Assembly (NCBI GenBank): GCA_964510775.1
Contig: CAZEBZ010000003.1
Span: 424-64,423 of the forward strand
Direction of reading: 5' to 3'
Length of the DNA stretch: 64,000 bases
Origin: an uncultured Thermodesulfobacteriota bacterium
GTDB lineage: Bacteria; Desulfobacterota; GWC2-55-46; JADFVP01
The position numbers and the translations under genes are program-made. The notes below the pieces were generated by a model. It saw only the letters and a list, made by a program, of their open reading frames with translations. It did not search any database and had not been told where the DNA came from. This document shows, piece by piece, positions 4,034 through 28,859 of this stretch; the stretch's first letter is position 1, and each line of letters opens with the position of its first letter.

Positions 4034-4546
4034 ATGGATATTAAAGAAAAGAACGATGTGATACTCACCGCTGTTAAGGAAAAATTCGGCTTTGTACCTA
4101 ACCTCTTCAGGACTCTCTCAATCAGCCCCGCTGTCTCAGATGTCTACCTGAAGGCCAATGCGGCTATGGAGGAGGCCTCTGTCTCGGCGCAGGAGACGCA
4201 TGGCGTAAACCTCGCCGTATCAGTTGAGAACGGCTGCAAGTACTGCGTTGCCGCCCATAGCGTCATGTGCAAGATGGTTGGTATCGAGGTTGATGAAATA
4301 GACCTTATTAAACAAGGTAAGCTGCCTGAGGAAAAAACCCTCGCCGCCGCCGTAAAGGCTGCGCTCCTTATAATGGAAAAAAAGGGCTGGCTCAATGACG
4401 GGGAGCTCTCAGAGCTTGAGAGTCAAGGCGTAGGGCGTGGAAAAATCTACGAGATAATCGCCCTAATAGGCATTAAGACAATAGCCAACTACGTTAACCA
4501 CATAGGAAAGACTGTGATTGACGATGAGTTTAAAGAGCAGGCCTAA
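4034..4546 (+). CDS. Carboxymuconolactone decarboxylase / AhpD-like family protein
   Basis: 170 aa with the ENGCKYCVAAHS CxxC-H core of the AhpD-like fold. AGGAG lies 8 nt upstream of the ATG. Confidence 0.75.
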   Translation: MDIKEKNDVILTAVKEKFGFVPNLFRTLSISPAVSDVYLKANAAMEEASVSAQETHGVNLAVSVENGCKYCVAAHSVMCKMVGIEVDEIDLIKQGKLPEEKTLAAAVKAALLIMEKKGWLNDGELSELESQGVGRGKIYEIIALIGIKTIANYVNHIGKTVIDDEFKEQA

Positions 4547-17714: not shown

Positions 17715-18377
17715 TCAGCCCCCTGCTGTTTTTTTCACTCTTTTATAGACAAAAGGCACAAGGGAGACGAGTAGAACAAGGAGAATACCTATAATAAATG
17801 CAGGGGAGACGCGGCCGTGGAATATATCCAGTATGGAGCTGGAAAAAACCACATAGGCCGTAATACCGGGAAGCATAAAGATAAGGGTAGCGAGGAAATA
17901 AGGAGCGAGGCCTATCTTAGTAAGGCCAAAGGCGTAGTTAAGAAAGTTAAATGGAAATAAAGGGATAAGCCTCGTAAAGGCCACAATCTTCCAGCCCTTT
18001 TTCTCTACGGACTCGTCTATCTCCCTCATACGGCCGCCCTTTACAAGGCCCTCTACCCACTCGCGCCCCATCTTTCTCGCGATAATAAAGGCAAGTGTAG
18101 CGCCTGTGGTAGCGCCGACGGCCACATAAACAACACCCCAAAAGGGCCCAAAAAGCACGCCGCCAACTACGGTAATGGGCAGCCCCGGAAGCATGAGACT
18201 CGGCGCGAGGGCATAAAATAGCATATAGACCACAGGGCCCCATACCCCAAAACCGCCTATCCACCCTCGCATTACGTCCTGGTCAAGGTATCTTCCAAGG
18301 CCGAGGTATCTTACGAGAAAAAAAGCGCCGCCTATAAAAAGCAGTAAGATTACGAATTTTATTGTTTTCTTATTCAT
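17715..18377 (-). CDS. DedA / TVP38-TMEM64 family membrane protein
   Basis: 220 aa with multiple TM helices and the family core motifs LMLPGLPITVVGGVLFGPFWGVVYV and FTRLIPLFPFNFLNYAFGLT. Confidence 0.8.
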   Translation of the reverse strand: MNKKTIKFVILLLFIGGAFFLVRYLGLGRYLDQDVMRGWIGGFGVWGPVVYMLFYALAPSLMLPGLPITVVGGVLFGPFWGVVYVAVGATTGATLAFIIARKMGREWVEGLVKGGRMREIDESVEKKGWKIVAFTRLIPLFPFNFLNYAFGLTKIGLAPYFLATLIFMLPGITAYVVFSSSILDIFHGRVSPAFIIGILLVLLVSLVPFVYKRVKKTAGG

Positions 18378-19013: not shown

Positions 19014-20444
19014 CTACTTACCCCTTCTGATAAGCCAGCGTGAGACCGTTGGAAACCACCCTGAGAAGAGTTTCTCCGTATAATAGGCGTCGCAGGCGCG
19101 TTTTAGCCCCTGCGCCACAGTGGGGTAGACGTGAATCGTCCCTGAAATGGCCGTTATGGGGAGCTTTGCCTTCATGGCAAGCACGTACTCGTGTATTAGC
19201 TCGCCTGCTCCGGGGCCAAGAATATGAGCGCCCAGTATCTGCTTTTTCTTGCTCACAACTATCTTTATAAGGCCCTTACCCTCGCCCTCAAGAAGGGCCC
19301 TGTCCACCTCGGCAAAGGGCACACGAAAGACAGAGACCTTATCGAACTTGGCGCGGGCCTCGGCCTCTGTAAGGCCAACTCTCGCAAGCTCAGGGTCGGC
19401 AAAGGTCACCCAGGGAGTTACCCTGTAATCGGCCCTTCTCTTTATAACAGGAAATAGGGCGTTTGATACGACAAGGCCCGCCTGATACTCGGCCATGTGC
19501 GTAAACTTAAATGGCCCCGTTACGTCTCCGGCGGCGTAGATATGACCCTGCGTGGTCTTCATTGAGAGGTCGGACTTTATACCCCTTCGTTTATCATACT
19601 CAATGCCTGCGTTAGAAAGGTCAAGGCCCTCTACATTAGGAGACCTGCCGATTGCGGACATTATCTCCTCAGCCTCATAGACCTTATCTCCATCAGAGCG
19701 GGCCGCGAGCACTCTCTTACCCCTCTCACTTCGCCCTATCTCCTTAAACTCCTTGCACGTCTCTATCTTTATACCCTCTTCTACAAGAAGGGCATGAAGG
19801 GCGGCGGAGAGCTCTTTATCTTCTCGAGGCAGTATCTGCCCTTTTTTCTCAAGTATGGTAACTTCCGCGCCAAGACGGCTGAAGATCTGGGCGAACTCTA
19901 TGCCTATGGGGCCGCCGCCGAGGATAATAATGCTTGAGGGCAGACTCGTAAGGCCAAGGGCCGTAATATTAGTAAGCGCACCGACTTCTTTTAGTCCGGG
20001 TATAGGTAAGATAGCGGGGCTTGAGCCCGAGGCTATAAGAAACTTTCTTCCAAGAAGCCTCTGCCCCTCTACGTTAAATACATGGTCGTCCTCAAAGGCG
20101 CCGCTGCCAAAGATTACATCTACACCCATCTTTCTGAAACGCTCAGGGTCGTCGTTACAGGAGATCTTTGACTGCACAGCCTTCATAGAGGCCATAACTT
20201 CTGCAAAATCCACGGTAACAGGGCCGCACTTTACGCCAAACTCCCCGGCGCGCCGTGCTATCATGGCTACCTTAGCAGAGTGAACGAGCCTCTTTGTAGG
20301 CACGCAGCCCCAGTGCAGGCAATCGCCGCCAAGGGAGGCCGTCTTCTCCACAAGGGCAACTCGCGCGCCGAGCTGCGCGGCGCCGCTTGCCGTAACAAGG
20401 CCCCCAACACCGCCGCCGATTATTATAAGATCGTATTTTTTCAT
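19014..20444 (-). CDS. FAD-dependent pyridine nucleotide-disulfide oxidoreductase (dihydrolipoyl dehydrogenase / mercuric reductase-like class I family)
   Basis: The start is placed at MKKYDLIIIGGGVGG. It has a redox-active disulfide GGDCLHWGCVP, a second NAD Rossmann motif, and a C-terminal dimerisation domain with the HxxxxE region (HVYPTVAQGLKRAC). No HMA domain is present. Confidence 0.85.
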   Translation of the reverse strand: MKKYDLIIIGGGVGGLVTASGAAQLGARVALVEKTASLGGDCLHWGCVPTKRLVHSAKVAMIARRAGEFGVKCGPVTVDFAEVMASMKAVQSKISCNDDPERFRKMGVDVIFGSGAFEDDHVFNVEGQRLLGRKFLIASGSSPAILPIPGLKEVGALTNITALGLTSLPSSIIILGGGPIGIEFAQIFSRLGAEVTILEKKGQILPREDKELSAALHALLVEEGIKIETCKEFKEIGRSERGKRVLAARSDGDKVYEAEEIMSAIGRSPNVEGLDLSNAGIEYDKRRGIKSDLSMKTTQGHIYAAGDVTGPFKFTHMAEYQAGLVVSNALFPVIKRRADYRVTPWVTFADPELARVGLTEAEARAKFDKVSVFRVPFAEVDRALLEGEGKGLIKIVVSKKKQILGAHILGPGAGELIHEYVLAMKAKLPITAISGTIHVYPTVAQGLKRACDAYYTEKLFSGWFPTVSRWLIRRGK

Positions 20445-20560
20445 GACTATCTGCTGTCCCTGTCCTGCATTAACTCCCATGTCTCATCTTTACTCTATAT
20501 GTAATATAACACCAGCGCATATATCCGTAAGTATGATGGCTTACATAAGCCGCCTCATAA

Positions 20561-21466
20561 TTAAATAGTCTTGGCGGACTCCATAAAATCCTTTACAGTT
20601 GAGAGGGCGGGGATACCGGCCCTGCCCCCTAAAGCAATGCATTTTAACGCGGCAAAGGCCGAGGCGAACCTTACAACCTCCTCCATAGGCCACTTTTGCA
20701 ACAGACCAAAGATATACCCGCCGTGAAAGACATCCCCAGCGCCTGTAGTATCAACGGCCTTAACCATAAAGGCCGGGGTAGTAAAGACCCTGCCCCCATC
20801 TTCGCCCACCCACGTCACAGAGCCTCTATCTCCAAGGGTTACGGTAACGGCCTTCGCGCCAGACTCGGCTATTTTTTTTACGGCCTCCTCGGGGTCGGCA
20901 TGAAAATAATTGGAAAAGACCTCAGAGCCTACGATATAGTCCGCCTTTGGCAGCAGCCTCAAGAGGCCCTCTCTCGGCGAGCCGGCATCGAGAACAACGG
21001 GCAGCCCCGCCTCTACGGCAACGTCGGCTATCCTTATCGAGGCCTCCTCCATAAGGCCGTCAAGAAGCAGGCAATCCGTACCCCTTAGCCACTCCCTCTT
21101 AACCTCAGCAGCGCCAAGCTCCGCTCCCGTCGGCCTCTTCCATAGAATAGTCCGCGAAGCGCTCACTGAGTTAACAATAATAAAGGCCAGCTGCGAGACT
21201 CCGCCCTCCCTTACAGCGAGGGCCTCTATATCAACACCCTCATCTATCAGGCCTTGCCTAATCTTGCCGCCTGCATCATCATCATAGACTACACCCCCAA
21301 AGGCCGTCTCTACTCCAAGCCTTGATAAAGAGACAAGGGCCGTTGCCACAGGGCCGCCGCCCTGCTCTGTAAACTCAAGAACCTCTTTTTTCAGATCCTC
21401 CGCAGGAAAACCATCTACCAAAGCGATAAAATCAAAGGAGGCCTGACCAAGACCGAATACTCTCAT
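20561..21466 (-). CDS. PfkB-family carbohydrate kinase (ribokinase-like)
   Basis: The start is taken at MRVFGLGQASFDF. The N-terminal 23 codons of the track ORF are translated from the intergenic repeat. It has a C-terminal DTTGAGDVFHGGYIFGLL anion-hole / catalytic-Asp motif. Confidence 0.85.
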   Translation of the reverse strand: MRVFGLGQASFDFIALVDGFPAEDLKKEVLEFTEQGGGPVATALVSLSRLGVETAFGGVVYDDDAGGKIRQGLIDEGVDIEALAVREGGVSQLAFIIVNSVSASRTILWKRPTGAELGAAEVKREWLRGTDCLLLDGLMEEASIRIADVAVEAGLPVVLDAGSPREGLLRLLPKADYIVGSEVFSNYFHADPEEAVKKIAESGAKAVTVTLGDRGSVTWVGEDGGRVFTTPAFMVKAVDTTGAGDVFHGGYIFGLLQKWPMEEVVRFASAFAALKCIALGGRAGIPALSTVKDFMESAKTI

Positions 21467-21482
21467 AAATTTCAAACCCCCC

Positions 21483-21735
21483 TTACTTTCTTTTAGAAAA
21501 AAGAAAGTAAGACAAAGAAAACCAACGGGGAACACAACGCCGCACTATAAAAAAAAACCTAACTTGCCCCACGAAACTTTCCTGAAAACAAGTGAGACAA
21601 AGACCCCCCTGCTTTCTTTTGGAAAAAAGAAAGCAGGGTAAAGAAAACCAATTATCTATACAAGCTTTTATCTCAAAAACACAGCCTTGCTCTAATCAAC
21701 AAAAAGAAAGCAGGACAAAGAAAACCATACACAGG
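21483..21735. repeat. Second locus of the same intergenic repeat family (three cores in reverse orientation)
   Basis: CTTTCTTTTAGAAAAAAGAAAGTAAGACAAAGAAAACCAA (21483-21525), GCTTTCTTTTGGAAAAAAGAAAGCAGGGTAAAGAAAACCAAT (21610-21652) and AAAAAGAAAGCAGGACAAAGAAAACCAT (21702-21729) are the reverse complement of TTGGTTTTCTTTGTC...CTTTCTTTTTTCYAAAAGAAAG. This locus lies between pfkB and dtd, which are both on the - strand. Confidence 0.8.
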
Positions 21736-21795: not shown

Positions 21796-22242
21796 TCAGG
21801 TATTACGGCTGTTTAGGAGCATAGTTACAGGCCCGTCATTTACGCTCTCCACCTCCATGTGCGCCCCGAACACACCGGCCTCAACTTGAAGACCGCTCTC
21901 TCTTAATTTTGTAATAAAGAGCTTATAAAGGGCCTCGGCCTTCTTTGGCTCCTCGGCCCCTGTAAAACTCGGCCTTCGCCCCTTTCGGCAATCTGCGAGC
22001 AGGGTAAACTGAGATACTACGAGAAGGGCCCCGCCGGCTTCGCCAACATCAAGGTTCATGCGACTAGAGGCGTCAGAGAATAACCGCAGGCCGCGCACCT
22101 TCGAGGCAATATAATCGAGCTCGTCCAAAGAATCACCCTTCTCCACGCCAAGATAAACGAGCAGACCAGACTCAATACTGCCTGTAAGAGCGCCGTCTAC
22201 AGTAACACTCGCCCTCTTCACCCTCTGCAGCACCGCTCTCAT
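21796..22242 (-). CDS. dtd: D-aminoacyl-tRNA deacylase
   Basis: 148 aa with the SQFTL and NDGPVT signature motifs, starting MRAVLQRVKRASV. Confidence 0.95.
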   Translation of the reverse strand: MRAVLQRVKRASVTVDGALTGSIESGLLVYLGVEKGDSLDELDYIASKVRGLRLFSDASSRMNLDVGEAGGALLVVSQFTLLADCRKGRRPSFTGAEEPKKAEALYKLFITKLRESGLQVEAGVFGAHMEVESVNDGPVTMLLNSRNT

Positions 22243-23045
22243 ATCTTTACTATCCTCACCTTCTCACCAACGCCTATGCCAAGCATCTTCGCGGCGTTGG
22301 CCTCACGTGCCGCCGCTTCCATAAACCCGCTGCTGCCCATAAGGGCCCCCGCGCCTGCCTCAGGTATATCGCCGTAGGTACGGTACAAGCCTTTTATTGA
22401 GCGCCCTTTTATGGTCACCTCAACATCGCAGACACCAAGACTCTCCTCCAAATCCCCTGCCTTAATATTGCTTATGAGGTTACCGTAGGTGTCTACATGG
22501 AGAATCTCACCACTTATAACCGCGCCGTCAAAGGTAGGCTCAGGAAGACTTATCATAAAAAAATCTCTTATCTCAAGACCGATTTTTTCAGGAGGTATGC
22601 CAAGGGTAAGGTAAGCGGCAACAGGCCCGAAAATATCTCGGCCATGAAATGTGGCGCTTACGTCTACTCTACAAAAATCGCTCTTTGTTATCTCAAAGAC
22701 ACGCCTTATCCCTGTTTTTTCCGCGGCAAGGCTTAAGAGCCCGTTATCGGGGCCCACAAAAAAACCGCGCCTTGTCTCCACTATTACACCGCGCCGCGAG
22801 GTGCCTACACCTGGGTCTACTACGCCTACATGCACTGCGCCTGAGGGAAAATAAGGACAGGCCCCTGCCATTACAAAGGCCCCCTCCATAATGTCGCCTG
22901 CACTTAGGGAGTGAGAGATATCCACTACCGAGGCGTGGGGGTTCACTCCAAGAATAACGCCCTTCACGGCGCCAACGTAAAAATCCTTAAGACCGAAATC
23001 AGTTGTAAGGGTTATAATCGAGGGCAAAGCCGCCTCCCTTATCGA
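22239..23045 (-). CDS. SAM hydroxide adenosyltransferase / fluorinase-chlorinase-like protein (DUF62 family)
   Basis: The conserved N-terminal block IITLTTDFGLKDFYVGAVKGVILGVNP and the DUF62 C-terminal beta domain are present. The track ORF extends to 23249, but that N-terminal extension has no DUF62 homology and overlaps the + strand DUF2249-NifU gene. The start is probably a GTG or TTG near 23045-23060, and its exact position is uncertain. It overlaps dtd by 4 nt. Confidence 0.75.
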   Translation of the reverse strand, partial: SIREAALPSIITLTTDFGLKDFYVGAVKGVILGVNPHASVVDISHSLSAGDIMEGAFVMAGACPYFPSGAVHVGVVDPGVGTSRRGVIVETRRGFFVGPDNGLLSLAAEKTGIRRVFEITKSDFCRVDVSATFHGRDIFGPVAAYLTLGIPPEKIGLEIRDFFMISLPEPTFDGAVISGEILHVDTYGNLISNIKAGDLEESLGVCDVEVTIKGRSIKGLYRTYGDIPEAGAGALMGSSGFMEAAAREANAAKMLGIGVGEKVRIVKI

Positions 23046-23172
23046 CAAAAAAAATGGCACTATACAATGATTTACAGTATAATCAACATATTGAGGTAAT
23101 GTAGAAAGTATACCATAAATCAGGCCCCGGCGAGGTCGAAGAAGACCTCTCTCGGCGAGCAAAGGAAGATAA

Positions 23173-23664
23173 ATGAATATGAACCCTTCAGTTGCAGTAG
23201 ATCTAAGCGAGCTGCCTGTCTTCAAACGGCATCCGCTGGCATTTGACACCTGGGATGAACTTCCTACAGGGGAGGTAATGCGCCTTACAAACGATTACGC
23301 CCCCGACATCCTGCAGGCCCACTTCGACTCCCTCTACCACGAGATTTTTAAGTGGGAAGTTATAAAGAAAGGCCCTGATACGTGGGTAGTGGATATAAAG
23401 AGGCTTCGCGACCCTGAGCCTGACGTGGGCGAAGATGTGCAGGAGAGAGTGCTTGCCGCCCTCGCCGAGATAAGACCCTTTCTTGAGGGAGACGGCGGAG
23501 ACGTGGAGCTCGTGGAGATAGACAAAGAGGAGCGCACTGTCAGGGTAAAGCTCACCGGGGCCTGCAGCAGCTGTCCCTCATCGTCATCAACCCTTAAGGG
23601 CGGCGTGGAAAAAGCCATCAAGGAGCACGCCCCTGAGATACGCACTGTTGAGAATGTAAAATAA
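23173..23664 (+). CDS. DUF2249 domain fused to a NifU-like C-terminal Fe-S cluster domain
   Basis: The N-terminal region (LPVFKRHPLAFDTWDELPTGEVMRLTNDYAPDIL) fits DUF2249. The C-terminus (IRPFLEGDGGDVELVEIDKEERTVRVKLTGACSSCPSSSSTLKGGVEKAIKEHAPE) is a canonical NifU_C (Nfu) domain with a CxxC motif. Confidence 0.7.
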   Translation: MNMNPSVAVDLSELPVFKRHPLAFDTWDELPTGEVMRLTNDYAPDILQAHFDSLYHEIFKWEVIKKGPDTWVVDIKRLRDPEPDVGEDVQERVLAALAEIRPFLEGDGGDVELVEIDKEERTVRVKLTGACSSCPSSSSTLKGGVEKAIKEHAPEIRTVENVK

Positions 23665-23998
23665 GGGGTAAGTGTGAGAGTGGTGCGAAGAGCAATAATA
23701 CTCTGAAGAGATTACTTGGTAGTCGAGAGTATTAAAAGGCCGCGCTTTTGCCACTCTCTTCTTTTTTGTCCTCGGAAACTACCATGCTCGCCGCCCTCTC
23801 TCTTTACAAAAAAGCCCGCAAAACCATCAAAATGCCTTTACAAGAGAGGTCTTTGGGCTATAATCTATCTTTACGCCTACATAAACTCAGCCATACACAC
23901 TTGAAATATGTAAGACAGCTTACTTCCCGGGCGGCCCATTGATGCTACCTTAAAAAATAACAGGGAAGGTCGGATAATAAAAACTTCAGGAGAATTAT

Positions 23999-25849
23999 AT
24001 GCAGATCGAAGAGGCAAAGAGCGTTACTGTGCCCCTGACGGGTCTATCCACACTGTGGTTTCAGGTCTCAGGCACGCTCTGCAATCTCAAGTGTTCTCAC
24101 TGCTTTATCAGCTGCGGCCCCGGCGTTAGGCGTCATAAGATGCTCTCAAGAGAGAGAGTGCAGAGCTACCTTGAGGAGGCCCGCGCAACGGGCATAAAAG
24201 AGATATACTTTACCGGAGGCGAGCCCATGCTCAACCCCGAAATAATGGGCATAACAGAAGACGCCCTTAAGGACGCAGATGTAACGATACTTACTAACGC
24301 CACGCTTATAAGCGCAGAAGTGGCCTCCAGATTCAAGGGCCTGGCCCTTGCCGCGGACTTTGAACTAACCTTCCGTGTCAGCATGGACAGCCCTGACGAG
24401 GCAAAAAATGACAAGATTCGCGGCGACGGCTCATTCAAAAAAACCTCAGAGGGCATAAAAAACCTAATAGGCGCCGGTTTTGAGCCCATTATTACGGCTA
24501 CGAAGATAGATGATAAGGGGCCCTGCCTTGAGGCCTTTGAGAATTGGCTCCGCACGCTGGGCTCAAAGGCCCCTCATGTAAAGACCCTGCCGCTCCTGCA
24601 TATCGGAAGAGGCGAGAAAAATTACCGTCCCTACAGCGAAGAAGAGAGGCTGCAGGCGGCCCGCCTTGAGTCCGTAAGACCAGAGGCCCTGCAGTGCTCC
24701 AGCGCACGTATGATAACGAGCGAGGGAGTCTTCTGCTGCCCCATTCTCATAGACGAGGACTCGGCGAGAATGGGCTCGACCATTCAGGAGAGCCTGCGCC
24801 CCGTGGCCCTTACCTCGCCTGCATGCTACACCTGCGTAAAAGAAGGTCTAAGCTGCTCCAACGCCTCGTCAACATGCTCTGAGGCTCGCCGCGAGGACGT
24901 TAAGTCCTTTTACGGAGAAGCCGCCGTAGAGCCCCAGCCCGGGCTTTGCTGCCCAACGGCGTACGCAGGCGCAGAGACAGGACACATCCCCGCGGAGGTA
25001 CTTGACGTATCCTACGGCTGCGGCAGCCCCATAACCCTCTCGGGACTCACCGCAGGCGAGACCCTTCTTGACCTTGGAGCAGGAGCCGGCATTGACTGCT
25101 TTATCGCCTCAAAGATAACAGGCCCAAAAGGAAGAGTCATTGGTATTGATATGACTGATGAGATGCTTGGAAAGGCCGAGAAAAACAAGGTGGAGGTGGC
25201 CGCAAGACTTGGCTACAGCAACGTAGAGTTCAAGAAAGGATTCCTTGAGGATATCCCCGTAGAAGAAAAGAGTGTAGATATCGTCACCTCTAACTGCGTA
25301 ATCAACTTAACGGCAGATAAGACCCCTGTCTTTAAAGAGATATACAGAATATTAAAAGACGAGGGCCGATTCGTCATTTCAGATATTATCTCAGAACGGA
25401 GCGTGCCCGCGGCCATGCAGGAGGACAGCGAGCTATGGGGCGAGTGCATCTCCGGCGCCCTTACAACGGAAGAGTTCATCAAAGAGGCGGTTGATGCGGG
25501 CTTTTACGGTATAAGTATTCTATCAGATACATTTTACCGTGAAGCAGACGGCATAAAATTCTACTCCATTACCTTTGACGCCCATAAAATGATAAAGGGC
25601 GAAAAGTGCCTCTACCGAGGGCATCAGGCTACCTACGGGGGGCCCTTCGAGTCTGTAACTGACGACGAGGGTCACGAGTTCCCGCGAGGCCTCGCAATAG
25701 AGGTATGTACAGATACGGCAAAAAAACTCACCGCCGCGCCATACAAGGGGCTCTTCACCGTAACTCCTCCACAAGGTGAAAAAACCGTAAAAGAAGAGGC
25801 CTGCGTGCCTAAGACGAGTAAGGCCGGCGGCAGTTCAGGGTGTTGCTAA
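23999..25849 (+). CDS. Fusion protein: N-terminal ArsS-like radical SAM domain plus C-terminal ArsM-type arsenite S-adenosylmethionine methyltransferase domain, with a Cys-terminated tail
   Basis: The N-terminus carries the radical-SAM cluster motif CNLKCSHCF and downstream Cys-rich segments (CCPILIDED, CYTCVKEGLSCSN). From about aa 300 there is an ArsM-like class I MTase with the conserved As-binding cysteines (CCPTAY, YGCGSP, VTSNCVINL, LWGECISGAL) and the SAM motif LLDLGAGAGIDCF. A ~100-aa extension ends in GGSSGCC. AGGAG lies 8 nt upstream of the ATG. Confidence 0.75.
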   Translation: MQIEEAKSVTVPLTGLSTLWFQVSGTLCNLKCSHCFISCGPGVRRHKMLSRERVQSYLEEARATGIKEIYFTGGEPMLNPEIMGITEDALKDADVTILTNATLISAEVASRFKGLALAADFELTFRVSMDSPDEAKNDKIRGDGSFKKTSEGIKNLIGAGFEPIITATKIDDKGPCLEAFENWLRTLGSKAPHVKTLPLLHIGRGEKNYRPYSEEERLQAARLESVRPEALQCSSARMITSEGVFCCPILIDEDSARMGSTIQESLRPVALTSPACYTCVKEGLSCSNASSTCSEARREDVKSFYGEAAVEPQPGLCCPTAYAGAETGHIPAEVLDVSYGCGSPITLSGLTAGETLLDLGAGAGIDCFIASKITGPKGRVIGIDMTDEMLGKAEKNKVEVAARLGYSNVEFKKGFLEDIPVEEKSVDIVTSNCVINLTADKTPVFKEIYRILKDEGRFVISDIISERSVPAAMQEDSELWGECISGALTTEEFIKEAVDAGFYGISILSDTFYREADGIKFYSITFDAHKMIKGEKCLYRGHQATYGGPFESVTDDEGHEFPRGLAIEVCTDTAKKLTAAPYKGLFTVTPPQGEKTVKEEACVPKTSKAGGSSGCC

Positions 25850-25965
25850 GGGCTCTTAACCCCTTTTACGCCTCATGGCGTAGGGCCTTGCGTCATACTG
25901 CAAGGCCCTACCATCAAAAAAAGTTATCATCAAAAAAACCTAACACAGCCCGAAATAAGTTGCAT

Positions 25966-27210
25966 ATGCGGCACTCTCATCTCTTTTTCACCGCAATCAC
26001 CGTTTTTTTTCTCCTCTTCACTACTTTCTCGGCAACATCTCAAGGAGCACAATGGCCTCCACGGATACGCTCCTTGCTCACGGCCCTTACCTACGTCAGT
26101 GAAGACCCCTCTGACTTTGGGGCAGAGACGAGCAAGAGCGACAAGACCCTCCTCAGTACATTCAAGCCCCGCATATTTATCGCCCCGGGCGGACGAAGGC
26201 CCGTTGATTTTTACGGATTTTATCTACCAAAAACCGCAGTAAAGAACGAGAAAGGGGCGATTGTAAAAAAAAATCCTACGAGGGCTTATCTAAAAACCAT
26301 TGAGCGAAATGCAGGCTTTTACCTCGATTATGAGGGCCCTGATAGGCCCTGTGAGGGTAGAGCCTGCGAGGGTTACGTAGGCACCGGATACGGCAGGGTC
26401 TATAGAGAGGACGCTCGCTTTTTCACAAAGGAGGGCGTAAGAAAAATACCCCTTACTATACTAAAATACAACTTCGCCTTTACTTACAGCGGCCTTCCCG
26501 CAGCTGTAGGGCAGTTGAAAGAACTGCCTCTTAGCCTCTTTATAGACCCGGCAAAAATTCATGAACTCGATATACACGGCGCCGTGCATATCGTACTAAA
26601 TGGACAAAAGAGACCCATCGCCCTGATTCTCGCCGAGCATAATTACTTCAGGACTTTTGTCTTTGGAGACAGTATCTCAAAGATGCCAAGAGACAAGCGC
26701 GTAAAAATATGCTTTGCCCAACGCTCAAACGAGCCCTATCCATGCCCTGCAGGGGCCGCTCCATTGAGGCGTCGCACAGTTGGCAGCCCCGCTGATATAA
26801 GTTACGTTATAAACGGCGGGGAAAAACCCTTTTTCTCAGGAGAGGACATTATCTACGGCCCAGAGTCCGGCGCGCAACAAGTGAAGTACGTACTGAAATC
26901 TCTACCAAAAAAAGACCCCCTCTACGTAAGCTGGATACCCCTTGGCAATAAAGAGAAGATCCTCTTTTACAAGAGTTACTACATACAAGGCCCGCCGGGC
27001 ATGGATATGAACACATGGCCCAAGAAGAAGAAATACTCTGATATTATGCAGTTCTGGTACTTTCGAGAGGACAGCAGCGAGGATGCCGCACTCATGGGGC
27101 AATATCTTCACACCCTAAGCGATGGAGATCTCAAGAGAGTGCTTGAGCATAACGGCGAAAGGCTTTATAATGATATCGCTATAGCAGAGCGCAAGGGCGG
27201 CAGAGACTAA
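25966..27210 (+). CDS. Hypothetical secreted/membrane-anchored protein
   Basis: The start is taken at MRHSHLFFTAITVFFLLFTTFSATSQG (a signal or anchor helix). No recognisable domain is present. It lies immediately downstream of the ArsS-ArsM fusion on the same strand. Confidence 0.5.
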   Translation: MRHSHLFFTAITVFFLLFTTFSATSQGAQWPPRIRSLLTALTYVSEDPSDFGAETSKSDKTLLSTFKPRIFIAPGGRRPVDFYGFYLPKTAVKNEKGAIVKKNPTRAYLKTIERNAGFYLDYEGPDRPCEGRACEGYVGTGYGRVYREDARFFTKEGVRKIPLTILKYNFAFTYSGLPAAVGQLKELPLSLFIDPAKIHELDIHGAVHIVLNGQKRPIALILAEHNYFRTFVFGDSISKMPRDKRVKICFAQRSNEPYPCPAGAAPLRRRTVGSPADISYVINGGEKPFFSGEDIIYGPESGAQQVKYVLKSLPKKDPLYVSWIPLGNKEKILFYKSYYIQGPPGMDMNTWPKKKKYSDIMQFWYFREDSSEDAALMGQYLHTLSDGDLKRVLEHNGERLYNDIAIAERKGGRD

Positions 27211-27392: not shown

Positions 27393-28859
27393 ATGATAAA
27401 GACCATTCTTCTCGCTGACGACAGCATCACCATGCAGAAGGTCATAAGGCTTACCTTTGCCTCCGGTGGTTACGAGCTATGCTGCGCAGACAACGGTGAT
27501 GAGGCGCTTAAAAAAGCCGAGGATCTAAAGCCGCACATTGTCCTTGTAGATGCCGCACTGCCGGGAAAAAACGGTTATGAGGTCTGCCGAGGCATAAAAG
27601 ACAATCCAAGGCTAAAAAATACCCCTGTCATTATACTTGCCGGAACCTTCAACCCCCTTGACGATGATAAAGCAACAAAGGCAGCGTGCGACGACTCCAT
27701 CGTAAAACCCTTTGAGTCAAGACAGCTTGTAGAAAAAGTAGAGAACCTCTTACGAAAATATCCTGCATCTGAGGCAACCCCTGCTGAGGAGGCGATTACG
27801 GGCGAGACTACGGGCTGGGCCGAGGACGATGTCATAAGAGCGCCTGAACCCTCACCCCTTGCAGGTGTCTCTTCCCTATCCTTTACTGAAGAGACCGTAA
27901 AGAGAGAGAATGTTCCTGACCTTGAGGTACTTGAAGGCCGCGGCAGTATAGAAAAACCTGACGAAGGCATAACTTCTGAGCAAAATGAGGAGGCAGAGAG
28001 CGCACCGCCAAAAATGGAGACAGCCCCTGGAGAATTAGAGGGAGAGGGGGGCTTTGACATAGAGGGCTTTGAGATTAATCCCTTTAAATCCGAGGCGTTA
28101 CGAGATACTGCCCCCATTGAGGAAAGAGGCAAAGGCATTAATGCCTGGAATGTTGAAGAGAAGGACCTCATAACCTTTGAGGACGGAGAGAGTGAGCTTG
28201 AGATAGAGACAGAGTCATACGCGGGCGCTGCGGCAGAGGATGAAGTATTAATTGATGAACCCATTAAAGCAGATGAAGGGCCCGCAGAGGACGTAATCGA
28301 GGCAGAAGAAGAGGGCGTCACTAAGGAGTCTACAGAGACTTTAGAGGGCGAGGCTCCTGCTGAGAGTAGTAATATAGCAGATGAGGCATGGATCTGTGAG
28401 ATTGTAAAGAAGATAAGCCTTGAGATAATGGAAGGGGCGGTGCGTGAAAAAGCCCCCGAGCTTGTACAAGAGGCCGTAGATGAGGCGGTGCGTGAAAAGG
28501 CGCCCGAGCTTGTAAAAGAGGCTGTAGAAGGAATAGCGAGAGAAAAAGCCCCCGAGCTTGTACAAGAGGCCGTAGATGAGGCCGTGCGTGAAAAGGCGCC
28601 CGAGCTTGTAAAAGAGGCTGTAGCAGAGATAGCGAGAGAAAAAGCCCCCGAGCTTGTACAAGAAGCCGTAGCTGAGGCCGTGCGTGAAAGAGCGCCGGAG
28701 CTTGTAAAAGAAGCCGTAGCAGAGATAGCGAGAGAAAAAGCCCCCGAGCTTGTAAAAGAGGCCGTAGAAGGGATAGCGAGAGAAAAAGCCCCTGAGCTCA
28801 TAAAAGAGGCCGTAGAAGAAGAGATGGAGAAAATCAAGGAGGCCATAAGAGGATTATAG
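27393..28859 (+). CDS. CheY-like response regulator with an acidic linker and a C-terminal array of 16-residue repeats
   Basis: Receiver domain MIKTILLADDSITMQKVIRLTF...VLVDAALPGKNGYEV...K. An E/D-rich low-complexity region follows, then roughly 8 repeats of the REKAPELVKEAVEGIA / REKAPELVQEAVDEAV type. Confidence 0.8.
   Translation: MIKTILLADDSITMQKVIRLTFASGGYELCCADNGDEALKKAEDLKPHIVLVDAALPGKNGYEVCRGIKDNPRLKNTPVIILAGTFNPLDDDKATKAACDDSIVKPFESRQLVEKVENLLRKYPASEATPAEEAITGETTGWAEDDVIRAPEPSPLAGVSSLSFTEETVKRENVPDLEVLEGRGSIEKPDEGITSEQNEEAESAPPKMETAPGELEGEGGFDIEGFEINPFKSEALRDTAPIEERGKGINAWNVEEKDLITFEDGESELEIETESYAGAAAEDEVLIDEPIKADEGPAEDVIEAEEEGVTKESTETLEGEAPAESSNIADEAWICEIVKKISLEIMEGAVREKAPELVQEAVDEAVREKAPELVKEAVEGIAREKAPELVQEAVDEAVREKAPELVKEAVAEIAREKAPELVQEAVAEAVRERAPELVKEAVAEIAREKAPELVKEAVEGIAREKAPELIKEAVEEEMEKIKEAIRGL
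28441..28824 (+). repeat. Eight in-frame tandem 48-bp repeats (alternating two variants) inside the response-regulator gene
   Basis: GTGCGTGAAAAAGCCCCCGAGCTTGTACAAGAGGCCGTAGATGAGGCG alternates with GCGAGAGAAAAAGCCCCCGAGCTTGTAAAAGAGGCTGTAGAAGGAATA, with point variants. The array causes the long antisense ORF 27575..28846. Confidence 0.9.

What the first reader, a model, noticed from the sequence alone, without database searches (positions are those of the whole stretch)
23999..25849. Single-polypeptide ArsS-like radical SAM plus ArsM arsenite methyltransferase, with a C-terminal tail ending in vicinal cysteines
The N-terminal half has the radical-SAM cluster motif CNLKCSHCF plus a C-terminal Cys-rich subdomain, as in the ArsS family that adds a 5'-deoxyadenosyl group to dimethylarsenite in arsenosugar biosynthesis. 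The C-terminal half is a full ArsM with the four As(III)-binding cysteines (CC…YGCG…SNCVINL…GECISGAL). In described systems arsS and arsM are separate adjacent genes. A fusion would channel DMAs(III) directly into the radical-SAM step. The extra ~100 residues end in GGSSGCC, a plausible additional As(III)-binding dithiol. The organism appears to be a non-phototrophic anaerobe, so an organoarsenical such as an arsenosugar, arsenolipid or arsinothricin-like product in this lineage would be notable.
Basis: partly seen in the sequence, partly recalled or inferred. Interest (0 to 1): 0.6.

Follow-up and report, generated by a model that had tools for sequence, protein, structure and literature searches.

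The report
Radical-SAM enzyme fused to arsenite methyltransferase
One gene of an uncultured sulfate-reducer-type bacterium joins a complete arsenic-methylating enzyme to an uncharacterised iron-sulfur radical enzyme that sits where the arsenosugar enzyme ArsS sits in other genomes, which suggests that strict anaerobes make complex organic arsenic compounds with a single two-step protein.

Summary
Residues ~297-616 are a complete ArsM. All four As(III)-binding cysteines are present, and so is the usual ArsM C-terminal domain, so the "extra 100 residues" are not extra. It ends in a CC that is invariant in this clade.

Residues 1-290 are a radical SAM domain, but it is not a member of the ArsS family: TIGR04167 scores 63-65 bits against a cutoff of 300, and there is no DUF3641 hit. 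It is a full copy of a widespread, unnamed, stand-alone ~290-aa radical SAM family with a twitch/SPASM-like tail of five cysteines.

That family is fused to ArsM in both orders and lies next to a separate arsM in about 20% of loci. It is surrounded by the same partner genes as true ArsS: TIGR04282 and TIGR04283 "arsenosugar glycosyltransferases", a VTT protein with a flavoprotein reductase, CMD, thioredoxin, and a small FAD oxidoreductase. No canonical ArsS occurs in any of the 85 loci examined. Of these partners, the window holds only the VTT/reductase pair and a distant CMD gene.

The most likely function is As(III) to DMAs(III), then radical C-As bond formation, as ArsS does. This chemistry is inferred, not shown. 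I found no description of the fusion in the literature. I rate it a new variant of a known kind, interest about 0.6.

The parts
23837..23864 (+). promoter-like site, TTTACA-16-TATAAT (11 of 12 matches)
   Evidence: This is a consensus match only; 4 such sites were found in the region against 1.7 expected.
23988..23992 (+). AGGAG ribosome-binding site, 6 nt before the ATG
   Evidence: read directly from the sequence
23999..25849 (+). whole ORF of 616 aa: radical SAM-ArsM fusion protein
23999..24868 (+). radical SAM domain, residues 1-290. It is a full-length copy of a stand-alone ~290-aa radical SAM family.
   Evidence: Stand-alone homologues are 44-53% identical over 94-99% of the domain and end exactly at its end. 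The AF2 model has pLDDT 92.9. The closest folds are SkfB, BlsE, SuiB, EpeE, anSME, viperin and MoaA.
24080..24103 (+). CX3CX2C motif (C28, C32, C35) for the radical SAM [4Fe-4S] cluster
   Evidence: invariant in 121 of 121 sequences
24695..24856 (+). Cys-rich tail: C233-x9-G-x3-C247 ... C276-x2-C279-x6-C286, a twitch/SPASM-like pattern
   Evidence: All five Cys are invariant. In the full-length profile alignment they line up with the five invariant C-terminal Cys of ArsS. The tail on its own is not significantly similar to the ArsS tail.
24947..24952 (+). CC pair (C317, C318). C318 corresponds to CmArsM Cys44.
25019..25021 (+). C341 in YGCG, corresponding to CmArsM Cys72
25025..25558 (+). SAM-dependent methyltransferase core and As(III)-binding region of ArsM. 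It includes C433 (25295-25297, corresponding to Cys174) and C483 (25445-25447, corresponding to Cys224).
   Evidence: Methyltransf_31 113 bits; PRK11873 232 bits; CmArsM E = 4e-45
25559..25774 (+). ArsM C-terminal domain, which carries the invariant CTDTA motif
   Evidence: It aligns with CmArsM up to query residue 589. It also matches the C-terminal ends of NF040538 and NF038099.
25775..25846 (+). low-complexity tail ending in an invariant C-terminal CC (25841-25846)
   Evidence: disordered in the AF2 model
25963..27210 (+). 415-aa protein with a signal-peptide-like N-terminus and no family hit, conserved directly downstream of the fusion in Thermodesulfobacteriota. It is a possible operon partner.
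19014..20480 (-). flavoprotein disulfide reductase of the MerA / dihydrolipoamide dehydrogenase type. It is a homologue of the reductase in ArsS-type clusters.
   Evidence: It is 42% identical to the reductase half of the VTT/FAD-oxidoreductase fusion in the B. thailandensis arsS cluster. It is 48% identical to the gene next to the long-form fusion in L004.
17715..18377 (-). VTT (TVP38/TMEM64, DedA-like) membrane protein, the partner of the reductase
4034..4546 (+). CMD (AhpD-like) family protein, 39% identical to the CMD gene of cluster L007. It lies 20 kb away, so the link is weak.

Best explanation
The gene encodes a bifunctional organoarsenical-biosynthesis enzyme.

The C-terminal ArsM module binds As(III) on its conserved cysteines and uses SAM to methylate it stepwise to dimethylarsenite, DMAs(III).

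The N-terminal module is a radical SAM enzyme with one CX3CX2C cluster and a five-cysteine twitch/SPASM-like tail. It then cleaves a further SAM reductively and joins the resulting carbon radical to the arsenic. The radical is most likely 5'-deoxyadenosyl, as in ArsS. The product would be 5'-deoxy-5'-dimethylarsinoyl-adenosine or a close analogue, the entry point to arsenosugar-type compounds.

Fusion would pass the toxic, oxidation-prone DMAs(III) from one active site to the other. The carrier may be a thiol, either the invariant C-terminal CC or C286.

Later steps (removal of adenine, nucleotidyl activation, glycosyl transfer) would be carried out by TIGR04282, TIGR04283 and related proteins. 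In relatives these are encoded next to the gene. In this genome they lie outside the window, if they are present at all.

Shown here: the identity of both domains, the conserved cysteines, the recurrent fusion and adjacency with ArsM, and the shared neighbourhood with ArsS. Inferred: every chemical step, and in particular which radical is transferred.
For: (1) The ArsM half has all four catalytic Cys, the SAM-binding core and the C-terminal domain.

(2) The radical SAM domain is a full copy of a stand-alone ~290-aa family with nine conserved Cys.

(3) Domain-fusion evidence that the two enzymes act together:
- rSAM-ArsM in the window type: 12 of 85 loci, from Thermodesulfobacteriota, Methylomirabilis, Planctomycetota and Brocadiaceae.
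- ArsM-rSAM in the reverse order, with the same radical SAM family: P0035 at 46% identity and P0094 at 42% (also P0362, P0378 and P0446).
- A separate arsM within 10 kb in 14 of 73 stand-alone loci, several directly abutting.

(4) The neighbourhood is the same as that of true ArsS.
- TIGR04283 and TIGR04282 score above their curated cutoffs next to a short fusion (L090: 209.7 vs 182 and 204 vs 134; L013: 273), next to a stand-alone member (L007: 230.7 and 212), and next to the long-form fusion (L004: 237.9 and 206.3).
- The canonical arsS cluster of B. thailandensis carries TIGR04283, TIGR04282, a small FAD oxidoreductase, a VTT/FAD-oxidoreductase fusion, thioredoxin/CcdA, MFS and CMD.
- The same families recur around this radical SAM family.
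- No canonical ArsS occurs in any of the 85 loci.

(5) The window keeps the VTT and reductase pair, 42-48% identical to those of ArsS-type clusters.

(6) Phosphate transporters, which are also arsenate uptake routes, lie beside fused genes in three lineages.

(7) ArsS is known to adenosylate DMAs(III) to DDMAA (bioRxiv 10.64898/2026.04.29.721666; PMC13598754).
Against: - The radical SAM domain fails both ArsS family models.
- Its core scores higher against MftC, NirJ, MoaA and anSME than against ArsS, and its Cys-rich tail shows no significant similarity to DUF3641. Same chemistry is therefore not implied by homology.
- The window (64 kb) has no TIGR04282, TIGR04283, Metallophos_2, DUF547 or DUF3179 gene. 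No ars operon gene was seen, but this was only a partial screen, not a full annotation of the window.
- Most stand-alone members (59 of 73) have no arsM within 10 kb.
- A cultured Roseomonas plasmid carries the cluster with a phosphonate-type ABC transporter and no arsM.
- The 'arsenosugar glycosyltransferase' names of TIGR04282 and TIGR04283 rest, as far as I know, on genome context and not on assays.
- No member of this radical SAM family has been studied experimentally. All 80 genome loci come from MAGs.
Confidence: 0.5

Rival explanations
1. The enzyme makes an organoarsenical, but by a different radical reaction. ArsM still supplies a methylated arsenical. The radical SAM domain then forms some other C-As bond or modifies the product in another way. 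Examples are transfer of a different SAM-derived or substrate-derived radical, as ArsL does with the 3-amino-3-carboxypropyl group, or H-atom abstraction that leads to an arsenolipid-type or otherwise unknown compound.
For: - The domain is not an ArsS family member, and its core is closer to H-abstracting SPASM/twitch enzymes.
- The ArsM half scores higher against the arsinothricin ArsM model (208 bits) than against the arsenosugar ArsM model (169 bits), though both are far below their cutoffs.
- Stand-alone members have a tightly linked Metallophos_2 partner in 57 of 73 loci. That gene is not among the genes annotated in the B. thailandensis arsS region.
- In Thermodesulfobacteriota a conserved unknown secreted protein follows the gene in place of glycosyltransferases.
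Against: The neighbourhood shared with ArsS (TIGR04282, TIGR04283, VTT/reductase, CMD, thioredoxin) argues for the same pathway. No ArsL-like family appears among the 25 best NCBIfam hits. ArsL is about 50 kDa and is unrelated outside the core.
Confidence: 0.22
2. Arsenic is not the native substrate. The ArsM-like half would methylate another soft metalloid, chalcogen or thiol (Se, Te, Sb, or a thiol cofactor). The conserved cluster would build a non-arsenic 5'-deoxyribosyl or other metabolite, with arsenic only an adventitious substrate.
For: - Most stand-alone loci lack arsM.
- The Roseomonas cluster carries a phosphate/phosphite/phosphonate ABC transporter.
- ArsS itself is often a selenoprotein, and the cluster is rich in thiol and redox proteins (PMC13188914).
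- No ars resistance genes were seen in the window in a partial screen.
- The ArsM half falls just below the NF008823 cutoff, at 232 against 263.
Against: All four As(III)-binding cysteines and the complete three-domain ArsM architecture are strictly conserved. Solved ArsMs are the only strong structural relatives, at E = 4e-45. ArsS has been shown to act on DMAs(III). Phosphate and arsenate uptake systems flank three fused genes.
Confidence: 0.15
3. The protein is a peptide (RiPP-type) maturase fused to a methyltransferase. The SPASM/twitch-like radical SAM domain would modify a peptide, and the methyltransferase would methylate it.
For: The closest solved folds and several of the best NCBIfam hits are peptide maturases: SkfB, SuiB, StsB and ScmF. 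The related long form carries an N-terminal PqqD-like domain and a full SPASM domain.
Against: The window protein has no PqqD/RRE domain and no Pfam SPASM hit. No small precursor-peptide gene, protease or exporter is conserved beside it. The partner genes are sugar and nucleotide transferases and redox proteins. The methyltransferase keeps the As-binding cysteines.
Confidence: 0.05
4. The protein only detoxifies arsenic. It would be an ordinary arsenite methyltransferase in which the Fe-S domain serves as a redox or electron-transfer accessory, for instance re-reducing the catalytic disulfide in an anaerobe, and not as a second catalyst.
For: ArsM catalysis involves a Cys44-Cys72 disulfide that must be re-reduced (established knowledge of CmArsM). 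The nearby flavoprotein disulfide reductase fits a redox theme.
Against: The N-terminal domain keeps the complete radical SAM apparatus, including CX3CX2C and the GGEP SAM motif. It also exists as an independent enzyme in operons that have no ArsM.
Confidence: 0.05

Closest known systems
ArsS (TIGR04167, radical SAM/Cys-rich (seleno)protein; arsenosugar biosynthesis in Synechocystis and others)
   Same: - It is a radical SAM enzyme of about 300 aa with CX3CX2C near the N-terminus.
- It has five invariant C-terminal cysteines in the same order and with similar spacing: CX9GX3-4C ... CX2CX6-7C, ending in G-x-S-C at the extreme C-terminus. That last position is where ArsS selenoproteins carry Sec (GxxU motif, PMC13188914).
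- It is linked functionally with ArsM.
- It shares the same gene neighbourhood: TIGR04282, TIGR04283, VTT with a FAD reductase, a small FAD oxidoreductase, CMD, thioredoxin/CcdA and MFS.
   Different: - The window domain scores 63-65 bits against a cutoff of 300.
- It has no DUF3641.
- It is 20-21% identical to ArsS in the profile alignment, and the significance of that alignment comes from the core only.
- The tail alone gives E about 0.05.
- ArsS has extra invariant Cys (C102, C132), and this family has C39.
- No ArsS-ArsM fusion was found in the papers searched.
ArsM / AS3MT arsenite S-adenosylmethionine methyltransferase (CmArsM 4fr0, Chlamydomonas 5evj)
   Same: It has the three-domain architecture, the SAM-binding core and Cys44/72/174/224 equivalents. 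E = 4e-45 to CmArsM.
   Different: It carries a 290-aa radical SAM domain at its N-terminus. It falls just under the NF008823 cutoff (232 against 263). It belongs to a clade with an invariant terminal CC and a CTDTA motif. It is 51-57% identical to the ArsM of the other Planctomycetota/Brocadiaceae-type and long-form fusions, but only 36-42% identical to the separate ArsMs beside stand-alone radical SAM genes.
ArsL / ArsM of arsinothricin biosynthesis
   Same: It pairs a radical SAM enzyme that makes a C-As bond with an ArsM. In ArsL, C-terminal cysteines bind arsenic (bioRxiv 10.64898/2026.04.29.721666).
   Different: ArsL is about 50 kDa, transfers the 3-amino-3-carboxypropyl group and acts before methylation. 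No ArsL-like model appears among the 25 best NCBIfam hits of the N-terminal domain. The gene context differs: arsQML lies in an ars operon (PMC8552651).
SPASM/twitch radical SAM enzymes (SkfB, BlsE, SuiB, EpeE, anSME, MoaA, MftC, NirJ)
   Same: These are the best fold matches and the best profile scores on the core. The window domain has a CX9GX3C motif typical of the twitch/SPASM auxiliary-cluster domain.
   Different: The window domain is much shorter at the C-terminus. It has no Pfam SPASM hit, no peptide-recognition domain, and a different gene context.
Long-form PqqD-rSAM-SPASM-ArsM fusions (832-884 aa; Scalindua, Zixibacteria, Nitrospinota, Nitrospirae; uncharacterised)
   Same: The ArsM domain is 54-57% identical and also ends in CC. 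The neighbourhood is the same: TIGR04282, TIGR04283, VTT, reductase and DUF3179.
   Different: The radical SAM part is only 30-38% identical over the core. It has a full SPASM domain and an N-terminal PqqD-like domain.

Membership tests
ArsM (arsenite methyltransferase; NF008823 / CmArsM type) | Class I SAM-dependent methyltransferase core with a GxGxG SAM-binding motif | tested here: met
   Methyltransf_31 113 bits at residues 351-489; LDLGAGAGID motif
ArsM (arsenite methyltransferase; NF008823 / CmArsM type) | Four conserved cysteines equivalent to CmArsM Cys44, Cys72, Cys174 and Cys224 | tested here: met
   C318, C341, C433 and C483 align with them and are invariant in 20 of 20 fusions
ArsM (arsenite methyltransferase; NF008823 / CmArsM type) | Score at or above the curated NCBIfam cutoff | tested here: not met
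   NF008823 scores 232.3 against a cutoff of 263. NF040538 scores 208 against 500, and NF038099 scores 169 against 400. This is a near miss for the general subfamily model, and the protein is not a member of either specialised equivalog.
ArsM (arsenite methyltransferase; NF008823 / CmArsM type) | SAM-dependent methylation of As(III) | not testable with these tools
   needs an enzyme assay
ArsS (TIGR04167, arsenosugar radical SAM (seleno)protein) | Score at or above the curated TIGR04167 cutoff (300 bits) | tested here: not met
   62.7 bits for the full protein and 65 bits for the domain alone, aligned only over residues 16-161 to model positions 7-148 of 303. Stand-alone family member L007 scores 57 bits.
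ArsS (TIGR04167, arsenosugar radical SAM (seleno)protein) | C-terminal DUF3641 (PF12345) Cys/Sec-rich domain | tested here: not met
   No PF12345 hit at E <= 0.01 for the window domain, while B. thailandensis ArsS scores 183 bits. The tail-only hhalign against ArsS gives probability about 1% and E = 0.05-0.07.
ArsS (TIGR04167, arsenosugar radical SAM (seleno)protein) | Five invariant C-terminal cysteines (CX9GX4C ... CX2CX7C, with the last in GxxC/U) | tested here: inconclusive
   The same number, order and near-identical spacing are present, and the columns coincide in the full-length profile-profile alignment. The region adds nothing to the score, and the pattern is also generic for twitch/SPASM domains.
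ArsS (TIGR04167, arsenosugar radical SAM (seleno)protein) | Genomic association with the TIGR04282 and TIGR04283 transferases and the VTT/FAD-reductase genes | tested here: met
   This is met for the radical SAM family and for fused relatives (L007, L090, L013, L004, L092). In the window itself only the VTT/reductase pair is present, and neither transferase is found within 64 kb.
ArsS (TIGR04167, arsenosugar radical SAM (seleno)protein) | Adenosylation of DMAs(III) to 5'-deoxy-5'-dimethylarsinoyl-adenosine | not testable with these tools
   needs anaerobic enzymology and As speciation
Radical SAM superfamily | CX3CX2C cluster motif with a partial TIM-barrel core and a GGE SAM motif | tested here: met
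   PF04055 72 bits; C28, C32 and C35 invariant; FTGGEP at residues 71-76; AF2 pLDDT 92.9 with the alternating strand-helix secondary structure expected of the radical SAM core
SPASM/twitch subgroup of radical SAM enzymes | C-terminal auxiliary-cluster domain (Pfam SPASM PF13186, or a CX9-15GX4C twitch motif) | tested here: inconclusive
   There is no PF13186 hit. However, C233-x9-G243-x3-C247 followed by CX2CX6C is present, and the best fold matches are twitch/SPASM enzymes.
Rv1681 family radical SAM protein (NF049973), the best NCBIfam hit of the N-terminal domain | Score at or above the curated cutoff (380 bits) | tested here: not met
   102-105 bits, covering model positions 80-242 of 326 only

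The most novel reading that the evidence does not exclude
This ~290-aa radical SAM family, fused here to ArsM, may be a third, independently recruited C-As bond-forming radical SAM enzyme alongside ArsS and ArsL. Its product would differ from the known arsenosugar precursor. That would define an undescribed organoarsenical pathway, possibly lipid- or envelope-linked and possibly tied to phosphate limitation, operating in strict anaerobes such as anammox bacteria, Methylomirabilis and sulfate-reducer-type Thermodesulfobacteriota.
Probability: 0.25. Interest if true: 0.85.

Novelty: new variant of a known kind. Interest (0 to 1): 0.6.

Why it matters
Only two radical SAM enzymes are known to make C-As bonds, ArsS and ArsL. 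Arsenosugar biosynthesis has been studied genetically only in cyanobacteria.

This result defines a large, unannotated radical SAM family. A single scan of one genome per species found at least 555 loci, all from MAGs. Genome context places the family in the ArsS role. Nature has fused it to ArsM at least twice, once in each domain order.

That gives three things:
- a directly testable single-polypeptide system for DMAs(III) channelling and C-As bond formation;
- a prediction that anammox bacteria, Methylomirabilis, Thermodesulfobacteriota, Acidobacteriota, Gemmatimonadota and others make complex organoarsenicals in anoxic, non-phototrophic settings, which bears on arsenic cycling in sediments, paddy soils and wastewater reactors;
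- a correction for current annotation, which calls these proteins only "methyltransferase domain-containing protein" or "MoaA-like".

The repeated adjacency to phosphate transporters also touches the old question of whether organoarsenicals are tied to phosphate scarcity.

Tried and rejected
- **Literature searches.** ArsM + radical SAM + fusion/fused, arsenolipid + radical SAM, ArsS + arsenosugar, and the TIGR04282/TIGR04283/TIGR04167 accessions found nothing that describes this fusion or this radical SAM family. The library is incomplete, so this is not proof of absence.
- **Unsupervised clustering of neighbour ORFs**. Single linkage chained fusions and antisense ORFs of high-GC MAGs together. 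I replaced it with seeded HMM counts. In that run the ArsM and rSAM HMMs were contaminated by fused sequences, so I separated true ArsMs by score (above 600) and checked them by motif.
- **End-to-end hhalign match to ArsS**. It looked like homology of the Cys-rich tails. Controls showed that the score comes from the core alone and that other radical SAM families score higher. I therefore do not claim tail homology.
- **C-terminal 97 residues alone against PDB.** No hit.
- **Full-length AF2 on 20 sequences.** The model is too poor (pTM 0.48) to say anything about how the domains pack or whether the CC tail can reach the radical SAM site.
- **afdb50 fold library.** Unavailable.
- **Rfam and tRNA scans of the window.** Empty, so there is no riboswitch upstream of the gene.
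- **Marinobacter plasmid hit H2.** It is an unannotated, apparently isolated copy with no informative context.
- **Cluster look-up of the protein.** The taxonomy rests on Thermodesulfobacteriota MAG homologues that are 79-80% identical.
- **ArsL-like and RiPP-maturase readings.** Considered and ranked low; see the rival explanations.


Full report
**1. The observation**

An uninterrupted ORF of 616 codons occupies 23999-25849 on the + strand. An AGGAG lies 6 nt upstream of the ATG. A near-consensus sigma-70-like site, TTTACA-16-TATAAT, sits at 23837-23864 inside a 335-bp intergenic gap. Pfam places Radical_SAM at residues 26-165 and a class I methyltransferase at 351-489.

The fusion is not an artefact. 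A search of 5.8 billion proteins returns more than 80 cluster representatives of 590-650 aa with the same architecture at 44-80% identity. They come from independent assemblies annotated as Thermodesulfobacteriota, Candidatus Kuenenia, Brocadiaceae and Planctomycetes, and one lies on a 2.9-Mb contig. In an alignment of 20 of them both halves are conserved throughout, with 62% mean column identity.

**2. The C-terminal half is a complete ArsM**

- *Family models.* The best NCBIfam matches are arsenite methyltransferase models: NF008823 at 232 bits (cutoff 263), the arsinothricin ArsM NF040538 at 208 bits (cutoff 500) and the arsenosugar ArsM NF038099 at 169 bits (cutoff 400).
- *Solved structures.* The only strong relatives are ArsMs. 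CmArsM 4fr0/4kw7 gives E = 4e-45 over query residues 288-589. Chlamydomonas ArsM 5evj covers 294-613.
- *Catalytic cysteines.* In that alignment C318, C341, C433 and C483 fall on CmArsM Cys44, Cys72, Cys174 and Cys224. All four are invariant in the family.
- *The 'extra' residues.* The region after the methyltransferase core is therefore the normal ArsM C-terminal domain. Only about the last 25 residues are an unstructured tail.
- *The terminal CC.* It is real and conserved. It is invariant in 20 of 20 aligned fusions, in the 12 fused genes of the analysed loci, in the long-form relatives, and in all 14 separate ArsMs encoded beside stand-alone homologues of the radical SAM domain. When ArsM comes first (P0035), CC motifs persist in the linker.

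**3. The N-terminal half is not an ArsS family member**

- *ArsS models.* TIGR04167 scores 62.7-65 bits against a cutoff of 300 and aligns only with the core, residues 16-161. DUF3641, the Pfam signature of the ArsS tail, scores 183 bits on B. thailandensis ArsS but is absent here.
- *Best family hit.* The best NCBIfam hit is the Rv1681 family, at 105 bits against a cutoff of 380. It is followed by SPASM/twitch maturases.
- *Fold.* A confident AF2 model of residues 1-294 (pLDDT 92.9) matches SkfB, BlsE, SuiB, EpeE, anSME, viperin and MoaA best.
- *What the domain actually is.* It is a full-length copy of a stand-alone protein family. More than 2,400 proteins match, and the best 120 are 279-331 aa long. 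They are 44-53% identical over 92-99% of the domain and end exactly where the domain ends. Databases call them 'radical SAM protein', 'MoaA' or 'AdoMet-dependent heme synthase'.
- *Conserved cysteines.* Nine are conserved. Invariant in 121 of 121 sequences are C28, C32 and C35 (CX3CX2C), then C233-x9-G-x3-C247 and C276-x2-C279-x6-C286. C39 is conserved in at least 90%.
- *Family size.* Among 1.84 billion representatives at 50% identity, 62 reach E <= 1e-30. Most are about 290-310 aa, and several are 517-687 aa with the domain at either end.

**4. Relation to ArsS**

I obtained a bona fide ArsS from the annotated B. thailandensis plasmid cluster and built an ArsS profile from 30 sequences. The profile-profile comparison with the new family gives probability 98.5% and E = 2.8e-15 over 277 columns, end to end. 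The five invariant C-terminal Cys of each family fall in the same columns: C233/C251, C247/C266, C276/C305, C279/C308 and C286/C316.

Controls temper this result.
- On the core, MftC (score 155), NirJ (124), MoaA (87) and anSME (87) score as high as or higher than ArsS (81).
- The N-terminal part alone accounts for the whole ArsS score, 110.9 out of 110.6.
- The tail alone shows no significant similarity to ArsS, with probability about 1% and E = 0.05-0.07.

What is shared is a cysteine pattern: CX9GX3-4C ... CX2CX6-7C, ending in G-x-S-C at the very C-terminus. In ArsS selenoproteins that last position holds Sec (GxxU; PMC13188914). No sequence homology of the tails can be demonstrated. Membership in ArsS is rejected. 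A distant sister relationship stays open.

**5. Functional coupling with ArsM**

A scan of one genome per GTDB species found at least 555 loci that encode the family. I analysed the best 80, all from MAGs, together with the loci fetched earlier, giving 85 with an anchor gene.

- *Fused loci.* Twelve are rSAM-ArsM fusions, from Thermodesulfobacteriota, Methylomirabilis, Planctomycetota and Brocadiaceae.
- *Stand-alone loci.* Seventy-three are stand-alone. Fourteen of these have a separate arsM of about 385-420 aa within 10 kb, and it directly abuts the radical SAM gene in L033, L048, L056, L084, L075 and L037.
- *Reverse order.* ArsM-rSAM also exists with the same radical SAM family: P0035 at 46% and P0094 at 42% identity over residues 10-286.
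- *Long form.* A third architecture, PqqD-rSAM-SPASM-ArsM of 832-884 aa, has an ArsM domain 54-57% identical to the window's, but a radical SAM core only 30-38% identical.

Fusions in both orders together with operon adjacency are classic evidence that two enzymes act in one pathway.

**6. Neighbourhood**

- *Stand-alone members.* They are followed by a Metallophos_2 phosphoesterase in 57 of 73 loci. They are accompanied by a small FAD oxidoreductase (42 loci), a DUF2064/TIGR04282 protein (25), CMD (15) and MFS (9). Some also have a TIGR04283 GT2, DUF547, and a VTT protein with a flavoprotein disulfide reductase.
- *Transferases above cutoff.* NCBIfam confirms TIGR04283 and TIGR04282, which NCBI names 'arsenosugar biosynthesis glycosyltransferase' families, above their curated cutoffs in three settings:
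  - beside a stand-alone member (L007: 230.7 against 182, and 212 against 134);
  - beside the long-form fusion (L004: 237.9 and 206.3);
  - immediately downstream of a short fusion that is 52% identical to the window protein (L090: 209.7 and 204), and 4 kb from the Methylomirabilis fusion (L013: 273).
- *Canonical arsS cluster.* The B. thailandensis cluster contains arsS, thioredoxin, CcdA, MFS, MTA phosphorylase, TIGR04283, TIGR04282, a small FAD oxidoreductase, a bifunctional VTT/FAD oxidoreductase, and a CMD gene at its edge. This is the same partner set.
- *A cultured example.* The Roseomonas plasmid carries TIGR04282, DUF547, two radical SAM genes (one of them a member of this family; hhalign probability 100, E = 1e-42), a phosphonate-type ABC transporter, a metallophosphoesterase, VTT, FAD oxidoreductases and GT2.
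- *No canonical ArsS.* None occurs in any of the 85 loci.

The family therefore occupies the ArsS position of a conserved system. From memory, the TIGRFAMs description of TIGR04283 lists 'another transferase (TIGR04282), a phosphoesterase and a radical SAM enzyme (TIGR04167)' as pathway partners. That would also fit the Metallophos_2 gene. I did not verify this here.

**7. The window itself**

Within 64 kb there is no TIGR04282, TIGR04283, Metallophos_2, DUF547 or DUF3179 homologue (tblastn). No ars operon gene was recognised among the ORFs I annotated, and the rest are mostly housekeeping genes.

The following are present:
- the VTT gene (17715-18377, minus strand);
- the flavoprotein disulfide reductase (19014-20480, minus strand), which is 48% identical to the one next to the long-form fusion and 42% identical to the reductase half of the B. 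thailandensis fusion protein;
- a CMD gene 20 kb away (4034-4546), 39% identical to the one in L007.

Directly downstream lies a 415-aa protein with a signal-peptide-like N-terminus and no family assignment. It follows the fusion in all four other Thermodesulfobacteriota loci at 49-63% identity. The organism is most likely an uncultured Thermodesulfobacteriota, since the nearest homologues are 79-80% identical MAG proteins.

**8. Mechanism**

The best-supported model has three steps.
1. The ArsM module methylates As(III) to DMAs(III). This is known chemistry for the family.
2. The product passes to the radical SAM module, possibly thiol-bound to the terminal CC or to C286. DMAs(III) can bind only a single thiolate.
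3. The radical SAM module adds a SAM-derived radical to arsenic. By analogy with ArsS this would be 5'-deoxyadenosyl, giving DDMAA (bioRxiv 10.64898/2026.04.29.721666; PMC13598754).

The downstream logic suggested by the canonical cluster runs as follows. MTA phosphorylase would give a 5-arsinoyl-ribose-1-phosphate. The CofC-like TIGR04282 would give a nucleotide sugar. The GT2 TIGR04283 would then make the glycoside. This logic is inference.

Fused genes lie next to phosphate uptake systems in three lineages: PstSCAB in L001 and L090, and PHO4 in L100. This fits an arsenate and phosphate connection.

I put 0.5 on ArsS-like adenosylation. I put about 0.7-0.75 on 'organoarsenical biosynthesis by consecutive ArsM and radical SAM steps' of any kind. 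The rivals are a different radical reaction on the arsenical (0.22), a non-arsenic native substrate (0.15), a peptide maturase (0.05), and a redox accessory for detoxification (0.05).

**9. Novelty and verdict**

The parts are known kinds: ArsM, a radical SAM enzyme, and the ArsS-type neighbourhood. The new elements are two. A distinct, unnamed radical SAM family stands in for ArsS. It is also repeatedly fused to ArsM, including in anammox bacteria, Methylomirabilis and Thermodesulfobacteriota. I found no paper that describes either point. Public annotation says only 'methyltransferase domain-containing protein'.

I class it as a new variant of a known kind, with interest 0.6. Its interpretation is partly supported: it is right about ArsM and about a functional ArsS-like role being plausible. 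It is wrong about ArsS family membership, about the 'extra' 100 residues, and about the implied rarity of the fusion.

Noticed in passing
window 25963-27210 (+): A 415-aa protein with a signal-peptide-like N-terminus has no Pfam or NCBIfam hit. It is conserved immediately downstream of the rSAM-ArsM gene in every Thermodesulfobacteriota locus seen (L003, L010, L011, L012; 49-63% identity). It may be a lineage-specific operon partner of unknown function.
   Followed up: partly
window 27393-28859 (+); repeat array 28431-28819: A response-regulator receiver protein has a C-terminal part encoded by a 48-bp tandem array of 8.1 copies. This gives about eight 16-aa 'REKAPELVKEAV...' repeats. Homologues follow the unknown 415-aa gene in L003, L010 and L011.
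   Followed up: partly
window 22239-23249 (-) and 20561-21535 (-): A SAM hydroxide adenosyltransferase (DUF62, fluorinase/chlorinase-like SAM_HAT) and a PfkB sugar/nucleoside kinase lie between the fusion gene and the VTT/reductase pair. A SAM_HAT homologue (46% identity) also sits in the unrelated KSB1 cluster L045 (rSAM + Metallophos_2 + ArsM + CMD). PfkB genes lie about 5 kb from the stand-alone radical SAM gene in five Nitrospinales loci. There may be a link to 5'-deoxyadenosyl-type nucleoside processing.
   Followed up: partly
L004 8001-10499 (also P0088-P0120): A second, larger fusion family has the architecture PqqD-like + radical SAM + SPASM + ArsM (832-884 aa). It occurs in Scalindua, Zixibacteria, Nitrospinota, Nitrospirae, Latescibacteria and Elusimicrobia. 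It is flanked by TIGR04282, TIGR04283, VTT, a flavoprotein reductase and DUF3179. At least three different radical SAM types therefore serve the same neighbourhood.
   Followed up: partly
L092 (Roseomonas haemaphysalidis plasmid p546-1, NZ_CP061178.1 52271-71143): A cultured organism carries the cluster: TIGR04282, DUF547, a 459-aa radical SAM protein, a 315-aa member of this radical SAM family, a phosphate/phosphite/phosphonate-type ABC transporter, a metallophosphoesterase, VTT, FAD oxidoreductases and GT2. It has no arsM. It is a useful experimental handle and also a caution that arsenic may not be the only substrate.
   Followed up: partly
L001 1-2645; L090 2356-8673; L100 6479-7408: Phosphate uptake genes lie just upstream of fused rSAM-ArsM genes in three separate lineages. 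They are PstSCAB in L001; PstSCAB-PhoU with PhoBR and porin O/P in L090; and a PHO4/PiT transporter with CMD in L100.
   Followed up: no
73 stand-alone loci among L007-L089: The stand-alone radical SAM gene is followed by a Metallophos_2 phosphoesterase in 57 of 73 loci, often with overlapping stop and start codons. None of the 12 fused loci has this gene within 7 kb.
   Followed up: no
window 23173-23664 (+): The gene upstream of the fusion encodes a DUF2249 + NifU-like fusion protein of 163 aa. It is conserved in the same position in L003. It may be related to Fe-S cluster handling, or the conservation may simply reflect local synteny.
   Followed up: no
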